Origin: the human T2T-CHM13v2.0 reference genome, Homo sapiens
Reading direction: 5' to 3' (one strand)
Length of the DNA: 64,000 nucleotides
NCBI RefSeq assembly: GCF_009914755.1
Contig: NC_060927.1
Shown here: positions 4,889 through 64,000 of the stretch, one piece after another
Layout of the letters: each line of letters begins with the position of its first letter
Numbering within the stretch: position 1 is the first letter of the stretch
Notes under the pieces: generated by a model
What the model saw: only the letters and a program-made list of their open reading frames with translations
What the model was told of the DNA's origin: nothing
Database searches by the model: none
Position numbers and translations under genes: made by a program

Positions 4889-5245
4889 GAGACAGAGAGT
4901 GCACCACACCTGGAGAGTTCCTACAGGAACTCTTGGGAAAACTTGAAGCCAACTTACATAGGTCAGTAACTGTTAGGTCCTAACATGTTTATCTCAGAGG
5001 ATGCAGCAGGAGGAGCTCTTGAATAAGGAAAAATACCATCTCCTCATTCCCTTATATTGAGGCATCACCTAAGAACCCTCGATTTATGACAAAACCCCTG
5101 GAACAAAGGTGATTATCTTGACTTAAGATTTCATTTTGATCAAATGGGAACCAAAAATACAAAATTAACTTAAGATATAGGAAAACAAACAAATTAACAC
5201 TTTTTGCCCACCTGAGTTTTGTGGAATGACATTCATACCCATTAC
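4550..5245 (+). mobile_element. Possible ancient mammalian Gypsy-type LTR (MamGypLTR-like) containing a (GA)n tract
   Basis: 3' end 'cacctgagttttgtggaatgacattcatacccattaca' resembles MamGypLTR termini; 5' limit uncertain. Confidence 0.4.
4850..4884. repeat. (GA)n microsatellite
   Basis: Direct reading of the agagag tract. Confidence 0.95.
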
Positions 5246-5251
5246 AGTTTA

Positions 5252-5624
5252 TGTCTTAGTCCATTTTCTGCTGCTATAACAGAATACCACACACTCAGTA
5301 ATTTATAAATAAAAGAGACTTATTTGGCTTATGGTTTTTGGGACTGGGAAGTCCAAGATCAAGGGGCTGCATCTGGTGAGGGCCTCCTTGCTGTTTCATA
5401 ACATGATGAAAGATATCACATGGTGAGAAAGGGCTAGAGAGGTAAAAGTACTTGATACAGATAGAGGAAAAGGAGGGCAAACTTCTGAGATAATGGCATT
5501 AATCCATTTATGAGGGCAGAGGTTTCATGATCTAATCACTCCCTAAAAGTTTTACCTATTAATACCATCACAATGGCAATTAAAGTTCAGTGTTGGTTTT
5601 GGAGGAGCCATTTAAACCCTATCA
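5252..5624 (-). mobile_element. MaLR solo LTR (MSTD-like)
   Basis: 'tgtcttagtccattttctgctgctataacagaatacc' ... 'tttaaaccctatca' is the reverse complement of MST termini. Confidence 0.85.
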
Positions 5625-6561
5625 ATTTGTATTTAAGTTATTTGTGTGCCAGCTTTAATAAATCCTTTTAGATGGTGAATTTCTATAGGACATTGGTTGC
5701 CTCTCTTTTTCTGATTTCCAGGCATCTTAAAAATAGTAGGAACTTAATATATATTTGTTCAATTGTATTGAATAGCTTAATCCAAAACATTCCCACTAGT
5801 AAATTGTCTTGGTAACCACCTTATTCATATATTATTATTAGCCCTGGTGCTCAAGTACTTTTACTCATTCAATGAGTCATCTGATATAACCAACTACAAT
5901 GAACATCAGCTAATACAAAGAAGGCATAATAGAGAAGCAAACCATAAGGCCATCATGACTTGAGCACATAGAGAACCAGTTTCAACAACTGTTGTCACTA
6001 CTTCTTGAAGTACTATCTTCACTTGGTTTCTAAAACACTCTATTCATCTAGTTTTCCTTCTATTTGTCTAATCCTACTCAATCTCTTTGCTGACATCTCC
6101 TTCCTTGGTCTTATTCAATCATTAGGCTATAAAATTCTTCTGTACACTAAAGACTCACACATTTATATACACATCTATCTGCTCCACACTTCTCTCTTTA
6201 GCTCCAGCTGCCTACTTGACCACTGTATCTAGGTGTCTAACAGGCTTTTAAAACTTAACATGTTTAAACTTGAGCTCTATATTCTCCCCAAAGCCAATGC
6301 CTTTATCAGTTTTTTTCCCATATTAGTAAATGACAATTTTCTATTTCCAGTATCTTAGGCCAAAATCCCTGTTGTCATCCTGGACTACTAATTTTCTCCT
6401 GGACCTCACATCCAAGTCCTCAGGGAAACCTAGCAGCTGAACCTTTAACTATATCCAGGATCTGACCATTCTCAATACATCTACTGCTGTCACCCAGGTC
6501 TAAGCCATCATCTCTTGCCTCCTATCTGACCTCTGTTTTTACCATTGCGCTTCTATAGCCT

Positions 6562-12429: not shown

Positions 12430-14497
12430 CTAAATGGTGCTGGGAAAACTAGCTAGCCATATTCAGAAAACTGAAAGTGGACCCCTTACTTACACCTTAT
12501 ATAAAAATTAAGTCAACTTAAATGTTAAAACCCAAAACCATAAAACTTAAATGTAAAACCCAAAACCATAAAACTTAAATGTAAAACCCAAAACCATAAA
12601 AACCCTAAGAGCAAATCTAGGCAATACCATTTGGGAAATATGCATGGGCAAGACTTTATGATGAAATCACCAAAAGCAATTGCAACAAAAGCTAAAATTG
12701 ATAAACAGGATCTAATCAAACTAAAGAGCTTCTGCACAGCAAAAGAAACTAACATCAGAGTGAACAGGCAACCTACAGAACGGGAGAAAATTTTTGCAAT
12801 CTACCCATCTGACAAAGGTCTAATATCAATAATTTACAAGGAACTTCAACAAATTTACAAGAAAAAAAAACAACCTCATAAAAAAGTGGGCAAAGGACAT
12901 GAACAAACACTTCTCAAAACGAGGTATTTATGTGGCCAACAAACACGACAAAAAAGCTCAACATCACTGATCATTAGAAAAATGCAAATCCAAACCACAA
13001 TGAGATAACATCTCATAGCAGTCAGAATAGCGATTATCAAAAAGCCGAAAAACAACATATGCTAGTGAGACTGTGGAGAGGTAGAAATGCTTTTACACTG
13101 TTGGTGGGAACGTACATTAGTTCAACCACTGTGGAAGACAGTGTAGAAATTCCTAAAGGATCTAGAACCAGAAGTACCATTTGACCCAGCATTCCCATTA
13201 CTGGGAATATACCGAAAGAATTATAAACCATTCTATTATAAAGATACACGCACACGGATGTTTACTGCAGTGCTGTTCACAATAGCAAAGACTTGGAACC
13301 AACCCAAATGCCCAACAAGGATAGACTGAAAAAAGAAAATGGGTACATATACACCATGGAATACTATGAAGCCATAAAAAGAAATGAGATCATGTCCTTT
13401 TGTTACGGGTGGGTCTTTGTTCTTAGAGCTCCCAAGGTGGTGGCGGCTGCTCCCAAGACGGCAGCAAGCCTTTTGTTCTCTCACCTGGGGTTCTTGGCCT
13501 CACAGATTCCAAGGAATGGAACCTTGGGCCATGCGGTGAGTGTTATAGCTCTATTGGAAGCCGTGGGCCATGGAAGAGAACTGTGGAACCCAGCGACTAG
13601 AGTTCAGCTCGATGAGGACGAACCTGGGCACTTAGCCCTGCAGGAACAATGGCGAGCCTTCAGTGTGATCAGGAACTGTGATGGGTGCCTCACTGGATCA
13701 GAAGCACAGCAGACACCCTGTCGGATCCGGAGCGGTGGAAGTCAGCAGCAGGTCTGTGATGGCAGTGAACAGCAGTGGTGGACGGTAAGTGAAAGCTCAA
13801 CTCCAGCCAGAAAAACACGGACCAGAAGAGTGCGCAGTTGCAAGATTTAAGAGTGAGAACAGAGCTCCCATACAATGGGAGGGGACCCGGATGGGGTTGC
13901 CCACCCCTGGCTTGAATGCCTGGGGTTTATATCGCAATCACTGTCCCTTACCCTGTGCTCTCAGGCGATATATGATTGACTATTTCTTTACCTCATGCCT
14001 TTAGCCTAATTGGTATTTTAGTGAGCCCTCTTTACTATCTGATTGGCCGGGTGTGAGCTGAGTTACAAGCCCTGTGTTTAAAGGTGGGTGTGGTCACCTT
14101 CCCCAGCTAGGCTTAGGAATTCTCAGTCGCCTAGGAAATCCAGCTAGTCCTGTCTCTCACTTTGCAGGGACATAGATGAAGTTGGAAGCTAGCATCCTCA
14201 ACAAACTAACATAGGAACATAAAACCAAGCCCTGCATGTTCTCACTCATAAGTGGGAACTGAGCAATAAAAACACATGGACTTAGGCACAGAAGGGGAAC
14301 AACACACATCAGGGCCTGTTGGGCAGGTGGGAGGAGGCAGAGCATCAGGACAAATAGCTAATGCATGCGGGGCTTAATACCTAGGTGATGGGTTGATAGG
14401 TGCAGCAAACCACCATGGCACACGTTTACCTATGTAACAAACCTGCACATTCTGCACATGTATTCCAGAACCTAAAATAAAATAAAATTTAAAAAAA
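12430..14497 (+). mobile_element. 5'-truncated L1PA (about L1PA8-10) with ORF2 C-terminal remnant and 3' UTR, interrupted by LTR17
   Basis: ORF 12631-13008 reads as L1 ORF2p C-terminus ([24 protein letters not shown]); 3' UTR 'gcttaatacctaggtgatgggttgataggtgcagcaaaccacc'; A-rich tail. Confidence 0.92.
13401..14159 (-). mobile_element. HERV-W solo LTR (LTR17), 759 bp
   Basis: Minus strand begins TGAGAGACAGGACTAGCTGGATTTCCTAGG (HERV-W LTR start) and ends ...GTAACA; 4-bp TSD cttt at 13397-13400 and 14160-14163; L1 reads continuously once it is removed. Confidence 0.93.
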
Positions 14498-16709: not shown

Positions 16710-17487
16710 TGAGAGGTGAAGCCAGCTGAGCTTCTGGATCAGGTGGGGACTTGGAGAACTTTTGCGTCTAGCTAAAGGATTGTAAACACACCAATCAGCA
16801 CTCTGTAAAAATGCACCAGTCAGTGCTCTGTGTCTAGCTAAAGGATTGTAAATGCACCAATCAGCACTCTGTAAAAATAAACCAATCAGCGCTCTGTGTC
16901 TAGCTAAAGGATTGTAAACGCACCAATCAACCCTCTGTAAAATGGACCAATCAGCACTCTGTAAAATGGACCAATCAGCTCTCTGTAAAATGGACCAATC
17001 AGCAGGACGTGGGTGGGGCCAAATAGGGGACTAAAAGCTGGCCACCAGAGCCAGCAGCGGCAACCTGCTTGGGTCCCCTTCCGCACTATGGAAGCTTTGT
17101 TCTTTCGCTCTTTGTAATAAATCTTGCTGCTGCTCACTCTTTGGGTCCGCACTACCTTTATGAGCTGCAACACTCACTGCGAGGGTCTGCAGCTTCATTC
17201 CTGAAGTCAGTGAGACCACCAACCCACAGGGAGGAACAAACAGCTCCTGACGCTCCACCTTTATGAGCTGTAACGCTCACTACAAAGGTCTGCAGCTTCA
17301 CTCCTGAAGTCAGCCAGACCAGGAACCCACCAGAAGGAAGAAACTCTGGACGTATCTGAACATCTGAAAGAACAAACTCCGGACACACCGTCTTTAAGAG
17401 CTGTAAGAGTCACCTCGAGGGTCCGCGGCTTCATTCTTGAAGTCAGAGAGACCAAGAACCTACCAGAAGGAATAAATTCCGGACACA
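16710..17487 (+). mobile_element. ERV9 solo LTR (LTR12 family), 778 bp
   Basis: Starts 'tgagaggtgaagccagctg', ends 'ttccggacaca'; tandem 'ccaatcagcactctgtaaaatg' units; repeated U5 blocks; flanks taac/taat. Confidence 0.93.
16785..17040 (+). promoter_or_regulatory. LTR12 U3 CCAAT (NF-Y type) array plus GC/GT box
   Basis: Seven CCAAT boxes and one CCAGT variant in tandem units, followed by 'gtgggtgggg'; activity not shown by sequence. Confidence 0.6.
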
Positions 17488-49691: not shown

Positions 49692-52600
49692 AACCTCATT
49701 ATAGATACTGTGATGAATTTTATTAGATAAAAGAGGGGCATAAAGGAGTGGAAGAATCAGAGGAGATTAATATTCTTTAAAGATTCCATAGGTGGTTATT
49801 TTACATTCTGTATCTTATATTTAAAATTTCTGATGTCACTGGAGGAATCTAAAGCTGTTTTTCATGGTTTCTTCTGACTTTTATACATGGTAGCCTCTTA
49901 TGTACTTGGTAAGTTTTGATTGTGAGCTCTACTTAATATGTAGTCATTTGGGGTCTAGATTGAAGGTATTATATTAATTACATTATATTAATATATTATG
50001 TTAATATATTTTCAATGAGAATTTGCATTTTCTTCTGCCTGGCACCAGGGCGTGTAAAGAATCTGAGACCATTTTATTTTTGTCACTTTGAGTTTTTACC
50101 AACTGTGGTGTTGGTAAACCCTAGAGAGAGTAGGTTTATAATGGCAAAAACCCAGAGGAGATTTTTCATTAATATTTTTACTGTTATCATCTTCATCATA
50201 AATCTTTTCCATCTAGAGCCCTGGAAAGTGTGTTACTTACCTCTACTCCTTACTGTTAGATGAAATTTTTCCATCTACTCCTTCAATAAGTGAAATCAAG
50301 TTCCAGAGAACCATTTTGCACAGTCTCAAAGCCTAGACTTCTGATTCTCATGTGACTGCTAACTTTCTCATTCTCCAGACAACTTTATCGGTAATAATTT
50401 GGGAGTGTCAATTTACCTGACTCTCTTGTGTATCTCTCTGTTACTGCTGAACATATGCACACATGGAATACTAGTGTAATTTGTTAGGTCTTCTTAAACT
50501 CTGATACTATTAAAATGATAAACCCTCTTACAAAAAATATTCATATGTCATATATATACAATTGCATAAAATCACAGAAGATGTATAGGTTTTCTGAAGA
50601 TAATATCTGAACTGTTTAGAGTCATGTTTTGAGAACTTAATTATTAGACAATTTAAAGTTCAAGTGAGCTATTTTGGTTAAAATAAATTTCAAAATTAAA
50701 ATTCAGTACAAGAATTGTAATTTATGAGTATTGTTGCATAGAAGACTATACTAGTTCCTTAAGGTATAAATGGGATTTTGTGGATATGTTGGGATGGGAG
50801 AAATATAAATGATGATTAGATGTTTTCCACTAATAACTGGAAGTGGCATTACTGGCAATAAGCAAAATATGCTTTGGTTGCCTTGCTAATTATGTGGTAT
50901 TTCCTGCTCTAGATAAATTGATGGTTTGAAAGAATAGTGATCAAGGAAAAGTTTATGCAATGTGGTTCTTTTATCCATTTTTCCTCTATTGATGTCTCTG
51001 TGAATTGTTTCTTTTTAACACTGGGTACTTGGGATTATGTATAGGTGAAGTATGGTTTTATACAAGCATCTTAAGTCAAAAGAGAAGTATTTCAATGGAC
51101 TCAAAATAAGTCCAATAAAATATTTAGGACTGTGTATTATATGTTTGAATAATCTATAAGCATTTTCTCTGTTAAACGTTTTCTTGAGGTCCCTGTCAAT
51201 ATAAATATTTTAAGTGCCATTAATTAGATGAACATTTCAAAATGTCTTGATGATATAGATTTGGAGACAAGATGAATGACTAGACATGGAAAGGAAGAGC
51301 TTCTCCCATGGAAGGACCGGACCATCAAGAAGACTGGTGCAATACAAACAGATCTTTGGAAAGAAGGCATTGAGAGTGAGTAGAGAGGGGACACAGACCC
51401 CACATTGAAAAGAGAGGAAGCTAGAAACCCTCCACAAAGTTGCTGAGCATCAGGACTCACTCCTGGCCAGTTTCTGGGGAAGGAATGAGTGAAAGAGGTG
51501 TGGAGTAGCCCACTCTCATCATGGACCTCTGGAATCCTAGCTGCAGGAGACCCCATGACCCCCATAGACATTTGAGTTGACAGGGAGAAATGCACAGAGA
51601 GTTGGCAGAGACAGAACTCCAGCCTGCATGGAGCCCAGAGGGTTTGGCACAGGGAATGGCTGCAGTAGATCATAGCCGTAAGTGCCCAAGCCCCAAGACT
51701 CACTATACTTCTCTTGTTGGCTTTAGCCTTTTTTTTGGCTACCATAATTGGACAAAACAGAGGTATTTTTCATGTGGGACAGGCCAATCTGATCTGAGTA
51801 ACCCTCTGTCTTCTGGCTTATCCCAGAGTCTGCCGGGCCACAAGAACTTGCAGCATGGCCTTGGCTGCTCAGTTGAGTCACTTGCCAGCAGCCACTGCCA
51901 TAGCCTTTTTGCTGGCAGACCCTGCCTATCAGAGAGCTTTTGCAGGCTACCTCCCTCATGCACCTGCCCACAGCCCTTCCCCAACTTCTCTGTGGCATGT
52001 GCTCACTCACAGCTTCCCCCTACTGCTTTATTGATGCATGCTTGCCCACAGCCTCCTCCTGCTGCTTTGCTGACACATGCACACACTAACTCCACCACTG
52101 TCCCACTGCTGCTGCACATGTGTGCATGGGGACCCCAACTGCTCTGCTGCCACCCACTGAAGTGCGTTTGCCAGCAGCCCCCCATCACAGTATTGTTGCC
52201 AGCAGACTGGGAACACCTTGTCCCCTCCAGCATGGCAGATGCTTAACCTTATGGGGCAAAACAAAAACAAAAACAAAAAAACAAAAAACAAACCAAAAAC
52301 AAACAAAAAAACTGTGAGCCTAGTCCTAGTCCCCAGAGTTAGAGTGCTCAGCTCAACAGCACAGGAGTATTGAGCTGAGCCTTCAGAGTTGAGATCTGAA
52401 ATTATCCAGAAATAAAGCCAATCAACTAAACTCAACCTTATAACATAGTAAAATCCTCAAGAGCACCAAATAATATAAAATCAAAAAGCCCTATCCAAAG
52501 GACAGCAATTTGAAACACCAAAGGAACATCAGTTCACACAGACAAGAAAGAACCAGCACAATAACTCTTCAACTCTAAAAGCTAGAGTGTCTTCTTACCT

Positions 52601-52850
52601 CCAAATGACTGCAATAGCTCCCCAAGAATTGTTCCTAACCAGACTGAAATGGCTGAAATGACAGAAATAGAATTCAGAATCTGGATGGCAACAAAGATAA
52701 TCAAGATTCAGGAGAAAGTTGCAACCCAATCCAAGGAATCTAAGAAATCCAGTAAAATTATACAAGAACTGAAAGACAAAAATAATCCTTTTAAGAAAGT
52801 GCCAAACTGATCTTCTGAAACTGAAAAACTCACTGCAAGAATTTCATAAT

Positions 52851-55262
<2,412 letters not shown>

Positions 55263-57170
55263 AATTTCTTAATACAATCAGAAGCATCAACAGCAGAATA
55301 GGTCAAGCTGAGGAAAGAATTTCAGGACTTGAAGACTGGCTCATTTAATCAACTCAGATAAAAATAAAGAGAAAAGAATTAAAAAAGGATGGAAACCTCC
55401 AAGAAATATGGTATTATGTAAAGAGACTAAACCTATAATGCATTTGCGTCCCAGAAAGAGAGAGAGAGAGTAAGCAACTTGAAAAATGTATTTGAGTATA
55501 TTGTCCATGAAAATTTCACTAAACTTGCTAGAGTGGTTGACATGAAAGTTCAGGAAATTCAGAGAACCCCATTAAGATAACATAAAAGATGAACATATCC
55601 AAGACACACAGTCATCAGATTCTTCCAGGTCAACATGAAAGGAAAAATATTAAAGACAGCTTGAGAGAAGGGGCAGGTCATGTACAAAAGGAACCCCATC
55701 AGACTAACAGTGGACTTTTCAGCAGAAACCTTACAGACCAGAAGTTATTGGGGACCTATGTTCAGCATCCTTAAAGAAAAGAAATTCTAACCAAGAATTC
55801 CATATTCAGCCAAATTAAGTTTCATAAGCAAAGGAGAAATAAAGATCTTTTTCAGATAAGAAAATGATAATGCAAATTATTACCAGCAGCCCTGCCTTAC
55901 AAGAGGTCCTTAAGGGAGTGCTAAACATGAAAACAAAAAAACATTACCTGACACCACAAAAACATACTTAAGTTCATAGCCCACTCACATAATAAAGAAA
56001 CTATACAATCAAGTCTTCATTACAACCTGCCAACAACACAATGTCATGATAAAATCCTCACATATCAATATTAACCTTGAATGTAAATCAGATAATGCCC
56101 CAATTAAAAGCCACAGAGTGGCAAGTTGGATAAAGAAGCAAGATCCACCTGTAGGCTGTCTTCAGGAGACCCATAGGCTCAAAGTTAAGGAATAAAAAAG
56201 GTCTATTAAGCAAACAGAGAAAAAAGAGCCAGGGTTGCTATTCTAATTTCAGACAAAACAAACTAAACCAACAATAATTAAAAAGGACAAAGAAGGGCCT
56301 TACACAATAATAAAGGGTTCAATCCAACAAGAAGACTTACCTATGTTAAATACATATGCACTCAACACTGAAGCACTTAATTCATAAAACAAGTTCTTAG
56401 AGACCTATGAAGAAACTTAGATAGCCACACAATATTACTACCACTAATAATAGATAACCACACACAGTAGACTTCAACACCATATGGAGAGTATTAGAGA
56501 GATCATTAAGGCGGAAAACTCACAAAGATATTCAGAATCTAAACTCAACACTTGACAAAGTGGACCTAACAGACATCTACAGAACACCACCCAACAACAA
56601 AATATATATTTTCCTCATCTGCACATGCATATACTCTAAGATCAAACACATACTTAGCAATAAAGCAATTCACAACAAACTAAAAAAAAACTCAAATCAT
56701 ACCAACCACACTCTTGGACTACAGTGCAATGGAAATAGAAATCAATACCAAGAAGATTTCTAAAAACTATACAATTACGTGGAAATTAAATAACTTGCTC
56801 TTTAATGACTTCTGGGTAAATAATGAAATTAAGGCAGAAATCAAGAAATTCTTTGAAATGAAGGAAAACAGAGATACAACATGCCATAGTCTCTGGGACA
56901 GAGCTAAAGCAGTGTCAAGAGGAAAGTTTATAAAGCTAAAAACTCACATCAAAAAGCAAGATCTCAAATTAACAATTTAACATCACACCTAAAGGAACTA
57001 AAAAAATAAGGACAAACTAACCCCAAAGCTAGCATAAGACAAAACCAAACCAAAATCAGAGGTGAACTGATGAAAATTGAGACACAAAAAACCATACAAA
57101 ATATTAACAATATCAGAAATTTGTTTTTTGAAAGAATAAATAAGATTGGTAGACTAATAAAGAAAAAAAA

Positions 57171-57507
<337 letters not shown>

Positions 57508-58542
57508 TTACAAAAAAATTATTCCAGTCCTACAAAAATACAAGAAACTCACTGAAACTATTACAAACACTTCTATGCACACAAGCTAGAAAACCTACAA
57601 TAGATAAATTCCTAGAAACATACAACCTCCCAAGACTGAAGCAGAAAGAAATTAAATTCCCAAACATACTAACAATGAGTTCCGAAATTGAAGCAGTAAT
57701 AAAAATATCTACCAACCAGTAAAAGCGCTGAGCCACACGCATTCACAGACAAATTCTAGGATAAATAAATAAATAAAAGTTGCTACCAATCCTATGGAAT
57801 GCATTTCAAAAAAACTCCTCTCCAACTCATCCTGTAAGACCAGCATTATTCTAACACCAAAACTTGGCAGCGACACAACAACAACAACAAAAAACATCAG
57901 GCCAGTATCTCTGATAAATATAGGCAAAACAATACTCAACAAAATACTAGAAAATCAAATCCAGCAGCACATCAAAAAGCTAATGTACCATGATCAAGTA
58001 GGCTTTATTCCTGTAATTCCTGTGATGCAAGGTTTGTTCAACATACAAAATCAGTAAATGTGATTTGGAACTAAAAACACAAGCCACATGAACATTTCAA
58101 TCGATGCAGTTAGAGGCTTTTGACTAAATTCAAGATTCCTTCAGCTAAAAATCCTCAAAAAACTAGGAATCAAAAGAACCTCAAAATAATAAGTCATCTA
58201 TAACAAAATCCACAGCCAACATCACACCCAGTGAGCAAATTTTGGAAACATTCTTCTTGAGAACCAAAACAAGAAAAGGATGCCCACTTTCACTACTCCT
58301 GTTCAACATAGTACTGGAAGTCCCAGTCAGAGGAATCAGGCAAGAGAAAGAAATAAAAGGCATTTAAACAGGAAAAGAAAAAGTGAAATTATCTCTCTTC
58401 ACAGATGGTATAATTCTATACCTAGAAAACACCGTAGTCTCTGCCCAAAGCCTCCTAGAACGATAAACAGCTTCCATAAAGTTTCAGGATACAAAATCGA
58501 TGTACAAAAATTAGTAGCATTTCTATACACTAAGAACGTCCA

Positions 58543-58872
<330 letters not shown>

Positions 58873-60697
58873 TCAAGAATGCTATCCCATTCATAATGGC
58901 CACAAAAAGAGAAAAAGAGTAACATACCTAGGAATACAGCTAACCAGGGAGGTGAAAGATCTCTACAATGAGGATTAGAAAACACTGCTGAAAGAAATCA
59001 GAGACAAAACAAATGGAAAAACATTTCATGCTCATAGACAGGAAGAATTAAGATTGTTAAAATGGTCATACTGCCCAAAGAAATTTACAGAATCAATGTT
59101 ATTCCTGTCAAAATACTAATGTCATTTTTCACAGGATTAGAAAAAGGTATTCTAAAATTCATATGGAACCAAAAAAGAGCCCGAATAGCCAAAGCAATCC
59201 TTAGCAAAAAGAACAAAGCCAGAACCATCACAGTACCTGACTTCAAACTATACTAGAAGGCTACAGTAACAAAACCAGCCTGGTACTAGTACAAAAATAG
59301 ATACATAGACCAATGGAATGGGTTAGAGAACCCAGGAATTAAGCTACACACCTACAGCCATCTGTTCTTCAACAAAGTTGACAATAACAAGGCTTTCTAT
59401 TCGACAAATGGTGCTGGGATAACTGGCTAGCATATGCAGAAGATTGAAACTAGACCCCTTCCTTTCACCATATACAAAAATCAACTTAAGACAGATTAAA
59501 GACTTAAATATAAAACCTAAAACTATAAAAATCCTATAGGAAAACCTAGGAAATACCATTCTGGGCATAGGCTTTGGCAAAGATTTCATGAAGACTCCAA
59601 AAGCAATTGCAATGAAAACAAAAATTGACAAGTGGAACCTGATTAGACAAAAGAGCTTCTGCGCAGCAAAAGAAACTAGCAGTGGAGAAAACAGCCTACA
59701 GAATGGGAGAAAATATTTGAAAACTATGCATCCACTAAAGGTCTAGTATGCAGAATCTATACAGAATTTAAATAACAAGCAAAAGCCAAACAACCCCATT
59801 GGAAAATGGGCAAAGGATATGAACAGACAATTCTCAAAAGAAGATATACATACAGGCAACAAGCATATTAAAAATGTCCAACATCACTAATCATTAGAGA
59901 AATGCAAATCAAAACCACAATGACATACCATCTCAGATCAGTCAGAATGTTCATTATTAAAAAGTGAGAAAACAACAGGTGCCTGGCAAGGCTGTGGAGA
60001 AAAGGGAACACTTATACACTGCTTATGGGACTGTAAATTAGTTCAGCCAGTGTAAAAAGCAGTCTGGAGATTACTCAAATAACTTTAAACAGAGCTACCA
60101 TTCAACCCAGCAATCTCATTTTTGGGTACATACCAAAAGAAATATGAATCATTCCACTAGAAAGATACATGTGCACTTATGTTCATTGTAGTACTTTTTT
60201 TACAATAGCAAAGACATGGAATCAACCCAGATGCTAACCAATGGTGGACTGGATAAAGAATATTTGGTATGTATACACCACGGAATACTATGTAGCCACA
60301 AAAAAGAATGAAATCATGTGCTTTACAGCAAGATGGATGCAACTGGAGGCCGTTATCCTAAGTGAATTAATGCAGGAACACAAAACCAAATACTATGTGT
60401 TCTTGCTTATAAATGGGAGCAAAATATTGAGTACACATGAACACAAAGAAGGGAAGAGTAGAAACCAGGACTTACTTGAGGATGGTGGGTGGGAGGAAGG
60501 TGATGATTAAAAAACCACCTGTTGGGTCTATGCTCAATACCTGGATGATGAAATTGTACACCAAACCTCAGTGACACGTAATTTACTCATGTAAGAAATC
60601 TGCACAAGTACCTTCTTAAGCTAAAATAAAAGTTGGAAGAACAAAATATATTTTACTAGGAGGTATGGACAGTCAAGAAAGTTTCTATAACTATTGT

Positions 60698-60919
60698 CAG
60701 GAGTCAGCAAAGTTTTCCTTAAATGGCTAGAGAGTAAATATTTTAGGCTTTGCTGGCCATGAGTTCTCTGTTGCAAATATTTAACTCTGCCATTGTAGTG
60801 TGGAAGCAGTGATAGACAATATGTAAATAAATAAACATGATTGTGTTCCAATAAAACTTTATTTACACAAACTGGCAGTGGATTGGATTGGCCTGATGGT
60901 TGTAGTTTGCTGATCCCTG
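60698..60919. mobile_element. MER58A hAT-Charlie element, located inside the L1 TSD pair
   Basis: TIRs caggagtcagcaaa ... tttgctgatccctg; typical internal 'gttccaataaaactttatttac'. Confidence 0.85.
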
Positions 60920-63900
60920 GTCTAAGTAATTACATGAGTAGTAACAATAGAGTTTAATAATTAGGGCGAGTACAGAGTGCTATGAAACACAGATCACTTT
61001 TGTTAGAAGGGTGATCAGAGAGGAGACACCTGAGGAAGCTTAAAAAAAACACAAAATGTCTTGATGATAGATTTTTAAAAGGGATGAAGTTTTATGGTTA
61101 AGTGAATTGGCAATTTATTTGGTTAGACTGAGTGAAATAGGTTTCCTGACAGCATAATTTTTCAAAAAGTCTAAAATGCAAATATATTATTATATTTCTA
61201 AAAGACTGTATAGCAAACTGCATTTTCTAGTAATTTAAACATCACATCTTTTTCTCTTGGTGCTTCTTGTTGGACTATACATTTGGAACATATCTGTGTC
61301 TCCTTGTACTACTTTTATTTCTATTTAAGTGTGAAATGAATTTAATACATATGTATGCCATAAACATTTATTTTTTTCTCATCATTGAATGTATAGTAAT
61401 TTAAATAATTAGTGGTTAAAATAGAAACTATATACACAGAGTAAAAGCAGAATAAGTTAACTTTTATTATAAATCTAAATTATCAGAATGGTTACTGTAC
61501 TAAGCAAATGTTGTCATCCTGTACCTGCTCTTTGCTGTTCATCATAAAAGTCCTGAAACAAATTTATATGTGACAGATACTGGGACCAAAATGCTCAGTG
61601 CCAAATTCCAAAATTTGGAATTAAAACCTACAGGTAAATGTGAACAACACGTTTTCCTTCATGGGTTGGACTGGATAGTGAAAACTGAAGTTTGAGATGC
61701 TAATTATCCCTTTTAATACTGTATCTTCTTCAGTAATAATGTGTAATTTATTATTTGTGAAAGAATTATAAAGTTTAATAAAACTCAGCAATTAAAATTA
61801 AATGAGATTAAATATTTTAGTACACATTGCAAAAATATTTGAAAAAACTGTGACCTTTATGCTGGCATTTGCAGTCATCTAGTGGTGGCCTTTTGAATAT
61901 CTTAATTGGTTTAGTATATGGTACTGTGTGTATTAGTGTTTGGAACACTTCAACCAACTTTCCACCACTGAGAGTGTTTATCTAGAATCTTGCACAGATG
62001 AGTATGTTTTATGGCCATAATATTACATCTTGTAAATAATAAATTTTAAAAGCAAAAATACAGCACTTGAGTAGTGACTGGTAAAGAGGACTGACACTTT
62101 CCGCCTCCATGTCTCTGTGTCTGGGCTGAAGAGGAAGGTTGTCTTTCTGTTTGCAGCCTTCTGTAACTGTCTCCTTGCTCAAAGCTCCATCAAGTCTCCT
62201 TTGGTCTTCATAAATGATACTCTTTTGGGATTCATGGGTGTTATTTAGCACACTACTGCAGTTTGCTTGCCTTCCTTATTTACTAGAAAACTATGAATTA
62301 CAAACATGGTTGGTATTGTAGCTTTAATGAAGAGAAAATGAAAATAATCCAGGGATATTTATCTCTGCAAAATCACTTTTTTGGCTTATTTCAGTTTACT
62401 CTATGATTCTGTCTATGGATTTTTGCTAGGAAGAAAGTCAGTAATGTTTTTACCTTTGGAAGAATACCAGTTAACTAGTAATCTTCAGAACTCTGATACT
62501 GGTAAGGCTTAAGTCCTCCAGACAGCACCTAATCCCAGGTCCAGCAGCTCTGACTGTAACTGTCAGTTTGCCATTTCATTCATCCTCATATATAATCTAG
62601 AATACACACATGCGTGTCAAATACATCCTGTAGTTTTACCTTAAATTTTAAAATTAAATTGTCTAATGAATAGCCTTTGTAAAGGCACAAAGTTAGGACT
62701 CCAATGTAGACAATGGGCTGGAAGTCCCACTTAAAACTATTTTAGCATACATATTTAATACATATTATATGTTATAATCATATCTCAAATTATTTTTCTC
62801 ATACATTTTCTAGTATCCAAATACGTAGAAAGGAATGGAGTATGATATTAAAAATTATTTTCTTTCTTATCTAGCATGTTCAGTTAACAATGTATAACCA
62901 AAAGAGCTAAAACAAAAGGCTATATGTACCTTTTCTGTTAATTTTTTTTGCTTTATTACAAATAAAAAGAGAATACCTGTTTTTAGTTGTTATTTTCCTA
63001 ATACAGTGGTATTTCCCAAGTCTATGAATAGCTCCTTGTAAAGATGGTTTGCCTCCCAGTGACTTCACATTAATAGCTAACAAAATTGTCATTCAATTTT
63101 CCCTCACAACTGTGAAATAAAGGTATAAAAATACAAGTTAAATTATTTCTCACAGTAATGTACTGTGTGTATCTTTGGAAAATGAAGGCTCTGTCTAGAA
63201 CTGCTTGTAAATATATAACACTACAACCATAAAAATGCATTATTTGTAGAAAACTATTATTAAATCAAATTGTTCCAAATATTGTTTTCAATAAATGCTA
63301 CTTAGCTAAAACTCCACCTCACTGACTGAAATCACATCAGTGGTAATGGAAGGGAAGAGTTGCAAACTACATCTTCAGCATCAACCCCCAGGAAGGTCAA
63401 GAGCCCAACCTTGGATTAACAGGAGGAGGCCTTCATAACTTACGAGACTCAAGAAAACACGCAAGTTGCCTGACGGTCCTAACTGTGATGAAAATCATCT
63501 ACTGAAGTGGATATTATTGTAAATCTTTGTCTACATGACAGATTTACATCTCCTTACCTCCATAAAATTCACCGTTAATGGCACAACACCTATTAAGCTG
63601 AGATATTTCTAGGTGTAGTACGTCATGGTATTTTCCTGTACAGTTTACATTATTCTTGGCATTTCACTGCCTGTCTCATGAGATGGCCAAGAAGGAAAAT
63701 ATAGTAACTTGCACTCACTTCTCAAGGACAAAATGCCATATCTTACCAGAGGAAACATTCAGAAAGTGAAAAGCAAACACTGAGAATCATAAGTTTGAAA
63801 AATGTGTCGTGTGAGAAATCTGGGGGCTTAGGGGAAAAACATTTTGTTTCATGGAATACTATTTTAATACATTACCAACTTTCCAGTTTTTAGGTTTTTC

Positions 63901-64000
63901 AAAAAGGGACAAATAAACATTTACAAAAGGCTTATTCTTAGAGCTGGGTATATACAGGAGAGAAAATAGGATCTTTGACACAAACTCAATCTTAGAGCTT

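What the first reader, a model, noticed from the sequence alone, without database searches (positions are those of the whole stretch)
51238..61069. L1 TSD closes ~400 bp past the L1 3' end: 3' transduction that moved a MER58A DNA transposon
Seen: caaaatgtcttgatgata (18 bp, exact) lies immediately 5' of the L1 start (51238-51255) and again at 61052-61069, extending to 'gattt' with a 2-nt indel. The second copy is preceded by an A-run (61042-61049). The L1 itself ends near 60645. The intervening ~400 bp is non-L1 and contains a whole MER58A. Established: L1 read-through yields 3' transductions bounded by TSDs, the left site tttc/aaaa fits L1 endonuclease preference, and MER58A is generally older than primate L1PA. 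Inference: the MER58A was copied passively from a donor locus. Caveat: no AATAAA is visible just upstream of the distal A-run.
Basis: partly seen in the sequence, partly recalled or inferred. Interest (0 to 1): 0.7.

Follow-up and report, generated by a model that had tools for sequence, protein, structure and literature searches.

The report
Ancient parentless L1 3' transduction
An old jumping gene (L1) on chromosome 3 carries at its end a 395-base copy of a stretch of chromosome 12 that includes a small DNA-transposon fossil; it was likely copied by read-through from a parent L1 that likely no longer exists, which makes this an old example of a known process.

Summary
Confirmed and extended. 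The 18-bp repeat is real and brackets a decayed full-length L1 (with a younger L1 and two Alus nested in it), a 395-bp non-L1 tail and an A8 run. The tail has exactly one other copy found in the genome, at C12:115,623,779-115,624,202 (minus strand). Homology covers both flanks of the MER element, starts at the L1 end and stops 3 nt before the A-run. Tail versus chr12 differs at 66 of 394 sites (16.8%); the L1 differs from its nearest siblings by 17.5-19.5%, so tail and L1 are of the same age. An older repeat runs on through the tail's end point on chr12, so chr12 is the native site. New point: chr12 has no L1 at the junction. This is a 'parentless' 3' transduction, a configuration described for young dog L1s. 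Most likely the source L1 segregated in an early primate population and was lost (0.75). Rivals: template switch or RNA ligation (0.13), clean excision (0.07). Unexplained: no poly(A) hexamer within 40 nt of the tail end, and excess chr12 changes near the junction. Known kind; modest interest.

The parts
51239..51262 (+). 5' target-site duplication of the whole insertion; the site reads TTTT/GA on the bottom strand
   Evidence: TTTT/GA appears among endonuclease sites in Table 1 passages of PMC4859970
51263..52850 (+). Outer L1: 5' UTR and first part of ORF1 (decayed)
   Evidence: colinear with full-length relatives L057, L066, L068; start matches 7 sibling 5' ends
52851..55273 (+). Nested younger 5'-truncated L1 with its own 14-bp duplication (52837-52850 / 55260-55273, 12 of 14 match)
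   Evidence: about 10% from 2 of 4 relatives checked; RVT_1 above cut-off
55274..60646 (+). Outer L1: rest of ORF1, ORF2, 3' UTR, its own AATAAA (60625-60630) and short A-rich end; many stops and frameshifts
   Evidence: PF02994 E=3.5e-7; ORF2p residues 218-310 E=1.9e-28
57174..57477 (+). Alu nested in the outer L1 (name recalled)
58545..58850 (+). Second Alu nested in the outer L1 (name recalled)
60644..60697 (+). Transduced tail, proximal flank; homologous to C12 from 115624202 downward
   Evidence: 40 of 54 columns identical; blastn E=1.4e-5 for 60644-60717
60698..60919 (+). Non-autonomous DNA transposon (MER58A, name recalled) carried within the tail
   Evidence: 182 of 221 columns identical to the chr12 copy
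60920..61038 (+). Transduced tail, distal flank: antisense fragment of an older repeat (L2-like, name recalled) that continues on chr12
   Evidence: 106 of 119 identical to chr12; a 34-nt stretch occurs at only these 2 places with up to 3 mismatches
61042..61052 (+). Remnant of the non-templated poly(A) tail (A8 then CAC); absent at the chr12 locus
61053..61074 (+). 3' target-site duplication

Best explanation
A decayed full-length L1 on chr3 carries a 395-bp tail copied from a chr12 locus that has no L1 today; it is likely a 3' transduction whose source L1 likely sat at C12:115,624,202 in an early primate population and was likely lost without fixing. Shown: the TSD brackets L1, tail and A-run; there is one paralogous locus; homology ends match the L1 end and the A-run; tail and L1 have the same divergence; chr12 has no L1 at the junction. 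Inferred: transcription ran past the L1's own AATAAA, the RNA was polyadenylated about 395 nt downstream, and ORF2p inserted it at a TTTT/GA site on chr3. The chromosomes bearing the source L1 were then lost by drift or selection, so the pre-insertion allele is what we see on chr12. The MER element was a passenger that did not move by its own cut-and-paste route.
For: One paralog in five searches that covered the tail. Both MER flanks are shared: 40 of 54 and 106 of 119 columns identical. Tail divergence is 16.8% (transversions 5.8%) against 17.5-19.5% (5.9-7.3%) for the L1 versus 7 siblings aligned over the ORF2 3' part; binomial p=0.56 against 18%. A chr6 copy of the old repeat (L105) aligns to L003 4717-5100, through the tail end at 4980, and to 5813-5951, beyond the junction (0 of 200 shuffles reach the score). 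The chr12 junction is a single copy of an A5-led site, with no L1 remnant. The nearest chr12 L1, 1 kb upstream, is 5'-truncated and inverted and 24.4% different in the 3' UTR, against 15.9-19.1% for the 10 closest of 12 siblings. Parentless transductions are the majority among young dog L1s (17 of 18, PMC7980453; 24 of 27, PMC13141329), and one was resolved by finding the dimorphic parent (PMC13103737).
Against: No sibling L1 with the same tail was found, so the source L1 itself is never seen. There is no poly(A) hexamer within 40 nt of the tail end on either copy; chr12 has AATAAA at 82 nt and AGTAAA at 69 nt, and the chr12 RNA there folds no better than shuffles (z=-0.55). Divergence is uneven: 27 of 102 proximal, 39 of 292 distal (p=0.003, breakpoint chosen afterwards). 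The MER body alone is weak evidence: 82.4% identity against up to 81.6% for 46 other copies, with 2 rare shared changes against 0-2 in controls. Repeat continuity on chr12 rests on 2 of 6 copies tried (L105 0 of 200, L110 2 of 200 shuffles); the other 4 gave nothing.
Confidence: 0.75

Rival explanations
1. No L1 ever sat at the chr12 junction. A polyadenylated chr12 RNA was joined to a full-length L1 RNA by template switching during reverse transcription (A5 on chr12 pairing like the L1 poly(A)) or by RNA ligation, and the chimera inserted on chr3.
For: The chr12 site is clean and begins with A5; no sibling shares the tail; the distal poly(A) signal is not canonical. Template switching and ligation are discussed for L1 chimeras in 10.1101/2025.02.02.635956 (passages).
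Against: The chimeras in the passages read have the foreign RNA 5' of the L1. An A-led junction is also what an L1 endonuclease site gives. No gene is annotated in this window, and no call examined whether the chr12 strand is transcribed. The parentless route is documented.
Confidence: 0.13
2. The source L1 was fixed at chr12 and was later removed cleanly by recombination between its TSDs, perhaps leaving a cluster of repair errors beside the site.
For: Polarised MER changes are 20 on chr12 against 8 on chr3 (p=0.036), and 15 of the 20 lie in 60698-60790, near the junction.
Against: PMC5402677 calls precise TSD-mediated deletion extremely rare (passage). The excess also surrounds a chr12-only (TAA)n insert, which can explain it.
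Confidence: 0.07
3. The tail is native chr3 flank, or arrived by a DNA-level duplication unrelated to the L1, and the 18-bp repeat is chance; chr12 would be the copy or an independent MER insertion.
For: The MER body is barely closer to chr12 than to other copies. An 18-bp exact match at 17% divergence has a chance of only about 3.5%. Orthologues were not available.
Against: Homology begins at the L1 end and stops at the A-run and TSD. The old repeat continues on chr12 only. The chr12 copy has no L1, A-run or duplication at its ends. The chance control gave 0 of 1250.
Confidence: 0.04

Closest known systems
L1 3' transduction (review PMC4859970; population map PMC9311842)
   Same: L1, its own poly(A) signal and short A-run, foreign sequence, second poly(A), all inside one TSD at an endonuclease-type site; interchromosomal; 395 bp lies within the 7-997 nt range in PMC9311842's abstract.
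   Different: Fixed and old (17% diverged) rather than polymorphic; no hexamer 10-40 nt before the distal poly(A); TSD of 22-24 bp is slightly above the 4-20 bp given in PMC4859970.
'Parentless' 3' transductions of dog LINE-1 (PMC7980453, PMC13141329, PMC13103737)
   Same: The tail maps to a single locus with no adjacent L1.
   Different: In dogs the parent still segregates and can be found in other individuals. Here it would have been lost tens of millions of years ago, so it can only be sought in other primates.
L1 chimeras made by template switch or RNA ligation (10.1101/2025.02.02.635956)
   Same: Foreign RNA-derived sequence and L1 inside one TSD.
   Different: Those described in the passages read carry the foreign part 5' of the L1; here it is 3' of a full-length L1.

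Membership tests
L1 3' transduction | One TSD brackets L1 and extra 3' sequence | tested here: met
L1 3' transduction | Insertion site resembles the L1 endonuclease motif | tested here: met
   TTTT/GA on the bottom strand; listed among sites in PMC4859970
L1 3' transduction | Non-templated poly(A) after the extra sequence | tested here: met
   A8 at 61042-61049, absent on chr12
L1 3' transduction | Extra sequence maps to another genomic locus | tested here: met
   C12:115623779-115624202
L1 3' transduction | Tail and L1 are of the same age | tested here: met
   16.8% versus 17.5-19.5%
L1 3' transduction | Poly(A) signal 10-40 nt before the distal poly(A) | tested here: inconclusive
   none within 40 nt today; AATAAA at 82 nt on chr12; 17% divergence could have erased one
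L1 3' transduction with a traceable parent | Source L1 directly upstream at the donor locus | tested here: not met
   no L1 at the chr12 junction; hence filed as parentless, not as a parent-daughter pair
Parentless 3' transduction | Donor locus is an empty site; parent exists or existed on other haplotypes | tested here: inconclusive
   empty site shown; former presence of the parent needs other primate genomes
LINE-1 | 5' UTR, ORF1, ORF2 (endonuclease, RT), 3' UTR in order | tested here: met
   PF02994 above cut-off; PF03372 and RVT_1 of the outer element below cut-off; ORF2p match; colinear relatives
L1PA16-like subfamily | Diagnostic 3' UTR positions against a library consensus | not testable with these tools
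   name recalled; no repeat library available
MER58A (hAT, listed in PMC5753468) | Terminal inverted repeats, about 220 bp, many dispersed copies | tested here: met
   the name itself is recalled
MER58A (hAT, listed in PMC5753468) | 8-bp target duplication (recalled for hAT elements) | tested here: inconclusive
   flanking 8-mers match at 2 of 8; on chr12 about 0.4 kb of other DNA lies between the MER and the resumed old repeat, which may have displaced one copy

The most novel reading that the evidence does not exclude
The chr12 site is the scar of a once-fixed, active full-length L1 that was removed base-perfectly by an error-prone repair event. The chr3 daughter then preserves the flank as it was before removal, and the cluster of chr12-only changes next to the junction is the repair footprint. 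Old transduction tails would serve as a general record of L1 removal from primate genomes.
Probability: 0.06. Interest if true: 0.65.

Novelty: new member of a known kind. Interest (0 to 1): 0.33.

Why it matters
It is a dated fossil of an active L1 that left no copy of itself at its own site. One case teaches little that is new: 3' transduction and parentless tails are both in print. The approach has more value. Counting how many old, fixed transductions lack a parent would measure how often active source L1s failed to fix in early primates, a test of selection against full-length elements. It also shows a dead DNA transposon gaining a copy through the L1 route, which blurs copy-number and age estimates for such families. 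No function is suggested: the window has no annotated gene.

Tried and rejected
1. The chr12 L1 1 kb upstream as the source: rejected; it is truncated, inverted and of a more distant 3' UTR type. 2. Sibling L1s with the same tail: none among 40 scored of 4813 candidates, 12 of 12, or 11 loci aligned directly; these searches score only the best candidates, so a diverged sibling may be missed, though one search found only 2 places. 3. Shared derived changes in the MER body as proof of kinship: 10 against 1-9 in 46 controls, 2 rare against 0-2; weak. The first panel was biased towards chr3 (5 versus 18) and was balanced. 4. A hairpin bringing the distant AATAAA near the cleavage site: no support on chr12 (z=-0.55); the chr3 copy folds better (z=-2.76), but this is one post hoc window. 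5. A profile of 10 old-repeat fragments did not reach the tail region; pairwise alignment did for 2 of 6. 6. Other copies of the chr12 sequence across the junction: none found, so the continuity of that element is untested. 7. In one search, 6 of 13 ORF2 rows were left out of the range because those loci hold only part of the region and their alignments ran into unrelated flank. 8. Szak 2003 and Pickeral 2000 were not held, nor was a guessed id for an SVA transduction paper.
Full report
Observation. The 18-mer is exact at 51238-51255 and 61052-61069 and is the only match of 12 nt or more between the left flank zone and 60550-64000. None of 1250 control zones shared an 18-mer with the 1 kb after the L1 end. 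Allowing the 2-nt indel, the duplication is 51239-51262 / 61053-61074. The left site reads TTTT/GA on the bottom strand, a variant listed in Table 1 of PMC4859970 (passages). An A8 run lies at 61042-61049.

Anatomy of the L1. The interval is not one 9.4-kb element. It is colinear with full-length relatives such as L057 over 51260-52850 and 55260-60641. It is interrupted by a younger 5'-truncated L1 (52851-55273, own 14-bp duplication) and by two Alus. The remainder is about 6.3 kb. One ORF1 fragment matches PF02994 above its cut-off, one ORF2 fragment matches human ORF2p 218-310, and the reading frames are broken throughout. Twelve sibling 3' ends place the L1 end at about 60639-60646, with its AATAAA at 60625-60630. 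The label L1PA16-like is recalled; PMC4158753 calls L1PA13/15/16 primate-specific (passages).

The donor. A search of the whole assembly with 60920-61045 gave 2 of 2 candidates: the window itself and C12:115623779-115623897. A 34-nt pattern with up to 3 mismatches occurs at these two places only. Homology runs from 60644 to 61038, that is from the L1's A-rich end to 3 nt before the A-run. It covers the MER element and both flanks: 40 of 54, 182 of 221 and 106 of 119 columns identical. The flanks carry the argument. The MER body alone is 82.4% identical to chr12 against up to 81.6% for 46 other copies.

Direction. The chr3 copy has the L1, the A-run and the TSD; the chr12 copy has none of these at its ends. 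An independent chr6 copy of an older repeat (L105; L2 by recall) aligns to chr12 from 260 nt beyond the tail's end point up to the MER, and again on the far side of the junction. L110 gives a weaker alignment of the same span (2 of 200 shuffles); 4 of 6 copies tried gave none. So chr12 is the native site, with moderate support from this test and strong support from the hallmarks.

Age. Tail versus chr12: 66 of 394 substitutions, 16.8%, transversions 5.8%. Outer L1 versus 7 siblings over the ORF2 3' part: 17.5-19.5%, transversions 5.9-7.3%; sibling pairs among themselves 16.0-21.0% (6 of 13 rows left out as partial loci). The two agree (p=0.56). The corrected distance of 0.19 is about 0.095 per branch. 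With recalled primate rates this is roughly 45-65 million years, an inference and not a tool result. The nested L1 is about 10% from two of four relatives checked, younger as nesting requires.

The missing parent. At the chr12 junction the sequence passes straight from upstream non-L1 DNA into a single A5-led site. The nearest L1 is 1 kb upstream, about 950 bp long, 5'-truncated and inverted, and differs by 24.4% in the 3' UTR. It cannot be the template of a full-length daughter. No other L1 with this tail was found. This matches 'parentless' transductions: 17 of 18 in PMC7980453 (passages), 24 of 27 in PMC13141329 (passages). PMC13103737 resolved one by finding the dimorphic, intact parent in another dog (passage). 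I infer the same here, with the parent lost long ago (0.75). A template switch or ligation gives the same junction (0.13; mechanisms in 10.1101/2025.02.02.635956, of which I saw the abstract, section 19 and passages). Clean excision is called extremely rare in PMC5402677 (0.07; passages).

What does not fit. First, neither copy has a poly(A) hexamer within 40 nt of the tail end. chr12 has AATAAA at 82 nt, where chr3 differs by one base, and AGTAAA at 69 nt; PMC9311842 reports 10-40 bp for six donors (passages). Folding gave no support for a bridging hairpin on chr12. Second, divergence is higher next to the junction (27 of 102 against 39 of 292, p=0.003 post hoc), and polarised changes are 20 on chr12 against 8 on chr3, 15 of them in 60698-60790. 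A chr12-only (TAA)n insert sits in that stretch and is the simpler cause. Third, a duplication with no substitution in 18 bp has a chance of about 3.5% at this age; this is tolerable, since the case was noticed for that match.

Novelty. 3' transduction is well known, and so are parentless tails. Searches for an ancient primate case ('L1PA16' + '3 transduction' + 'ancient') returned 0 papers, and 'parentless' returned 4 listed papers, all on dogs. This does not show the locus is unreported: Szak 2003 and Pickeral 2000, which surveyed the human reference, were not held, and no supplements were read. PMC5753468 lists MER58A in its DNA-transposon table (passages).

Noticed in passing
window 55231-55259: Between the nested L1's A-rich end and its right-hand duplication lie about 18 extra bases and a second A-rich run: possibly a very short 3' transduction of the nested L1. 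A search with 55150-55275 showed no clear donor among 40 scored of 627 candidates.
   Followed up: partly
L003 5299-5326 (C12 about 115624098-115624125): A (TAA)n insert of about 30 nt inside the chr12 MER copy, absent on chr3. It begins like the end of the nested L1 in the window (55205-55225) and sits at a TCTT/AA-type site; it may be a minimal L1 insertion in the opposite direction.
   Followed up: partly
L003 6444-7378 (C12 115625243-115626177): A 5'-truncated L1 with an inverted 5' part, about 950 bp, 1 kb upstream of the donor junction.
   Followed up: yes
L003 about 5350-5760: About 0.4 kb of AT-rich DNA between the MER and the resumed old repeat; it may be a second DNA transposon, but no other copy was found.
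   Followed up: partly
window 12526-14257: L1 3' fragments share exact runs of up to 34 nt with the nested L1 at 54217-54997: a closely related copy 41 kb upstream, preceded by a 28-bp tandem duplication at 12526-12601.
   Followed up: no
window 16766-17004: Short tandem repeats of 24-66 bp, like those in LTR12-type elements (name recalled).
   Followed up: no
L023 and L024 (C23:100844753 and C23:100730781): The two best relatives of the L1 5' UTR give identical scores on opposite strands 114 kb apart on the X chromosome: an inverted duplication holding an old full-length L1.
   Followed up: no
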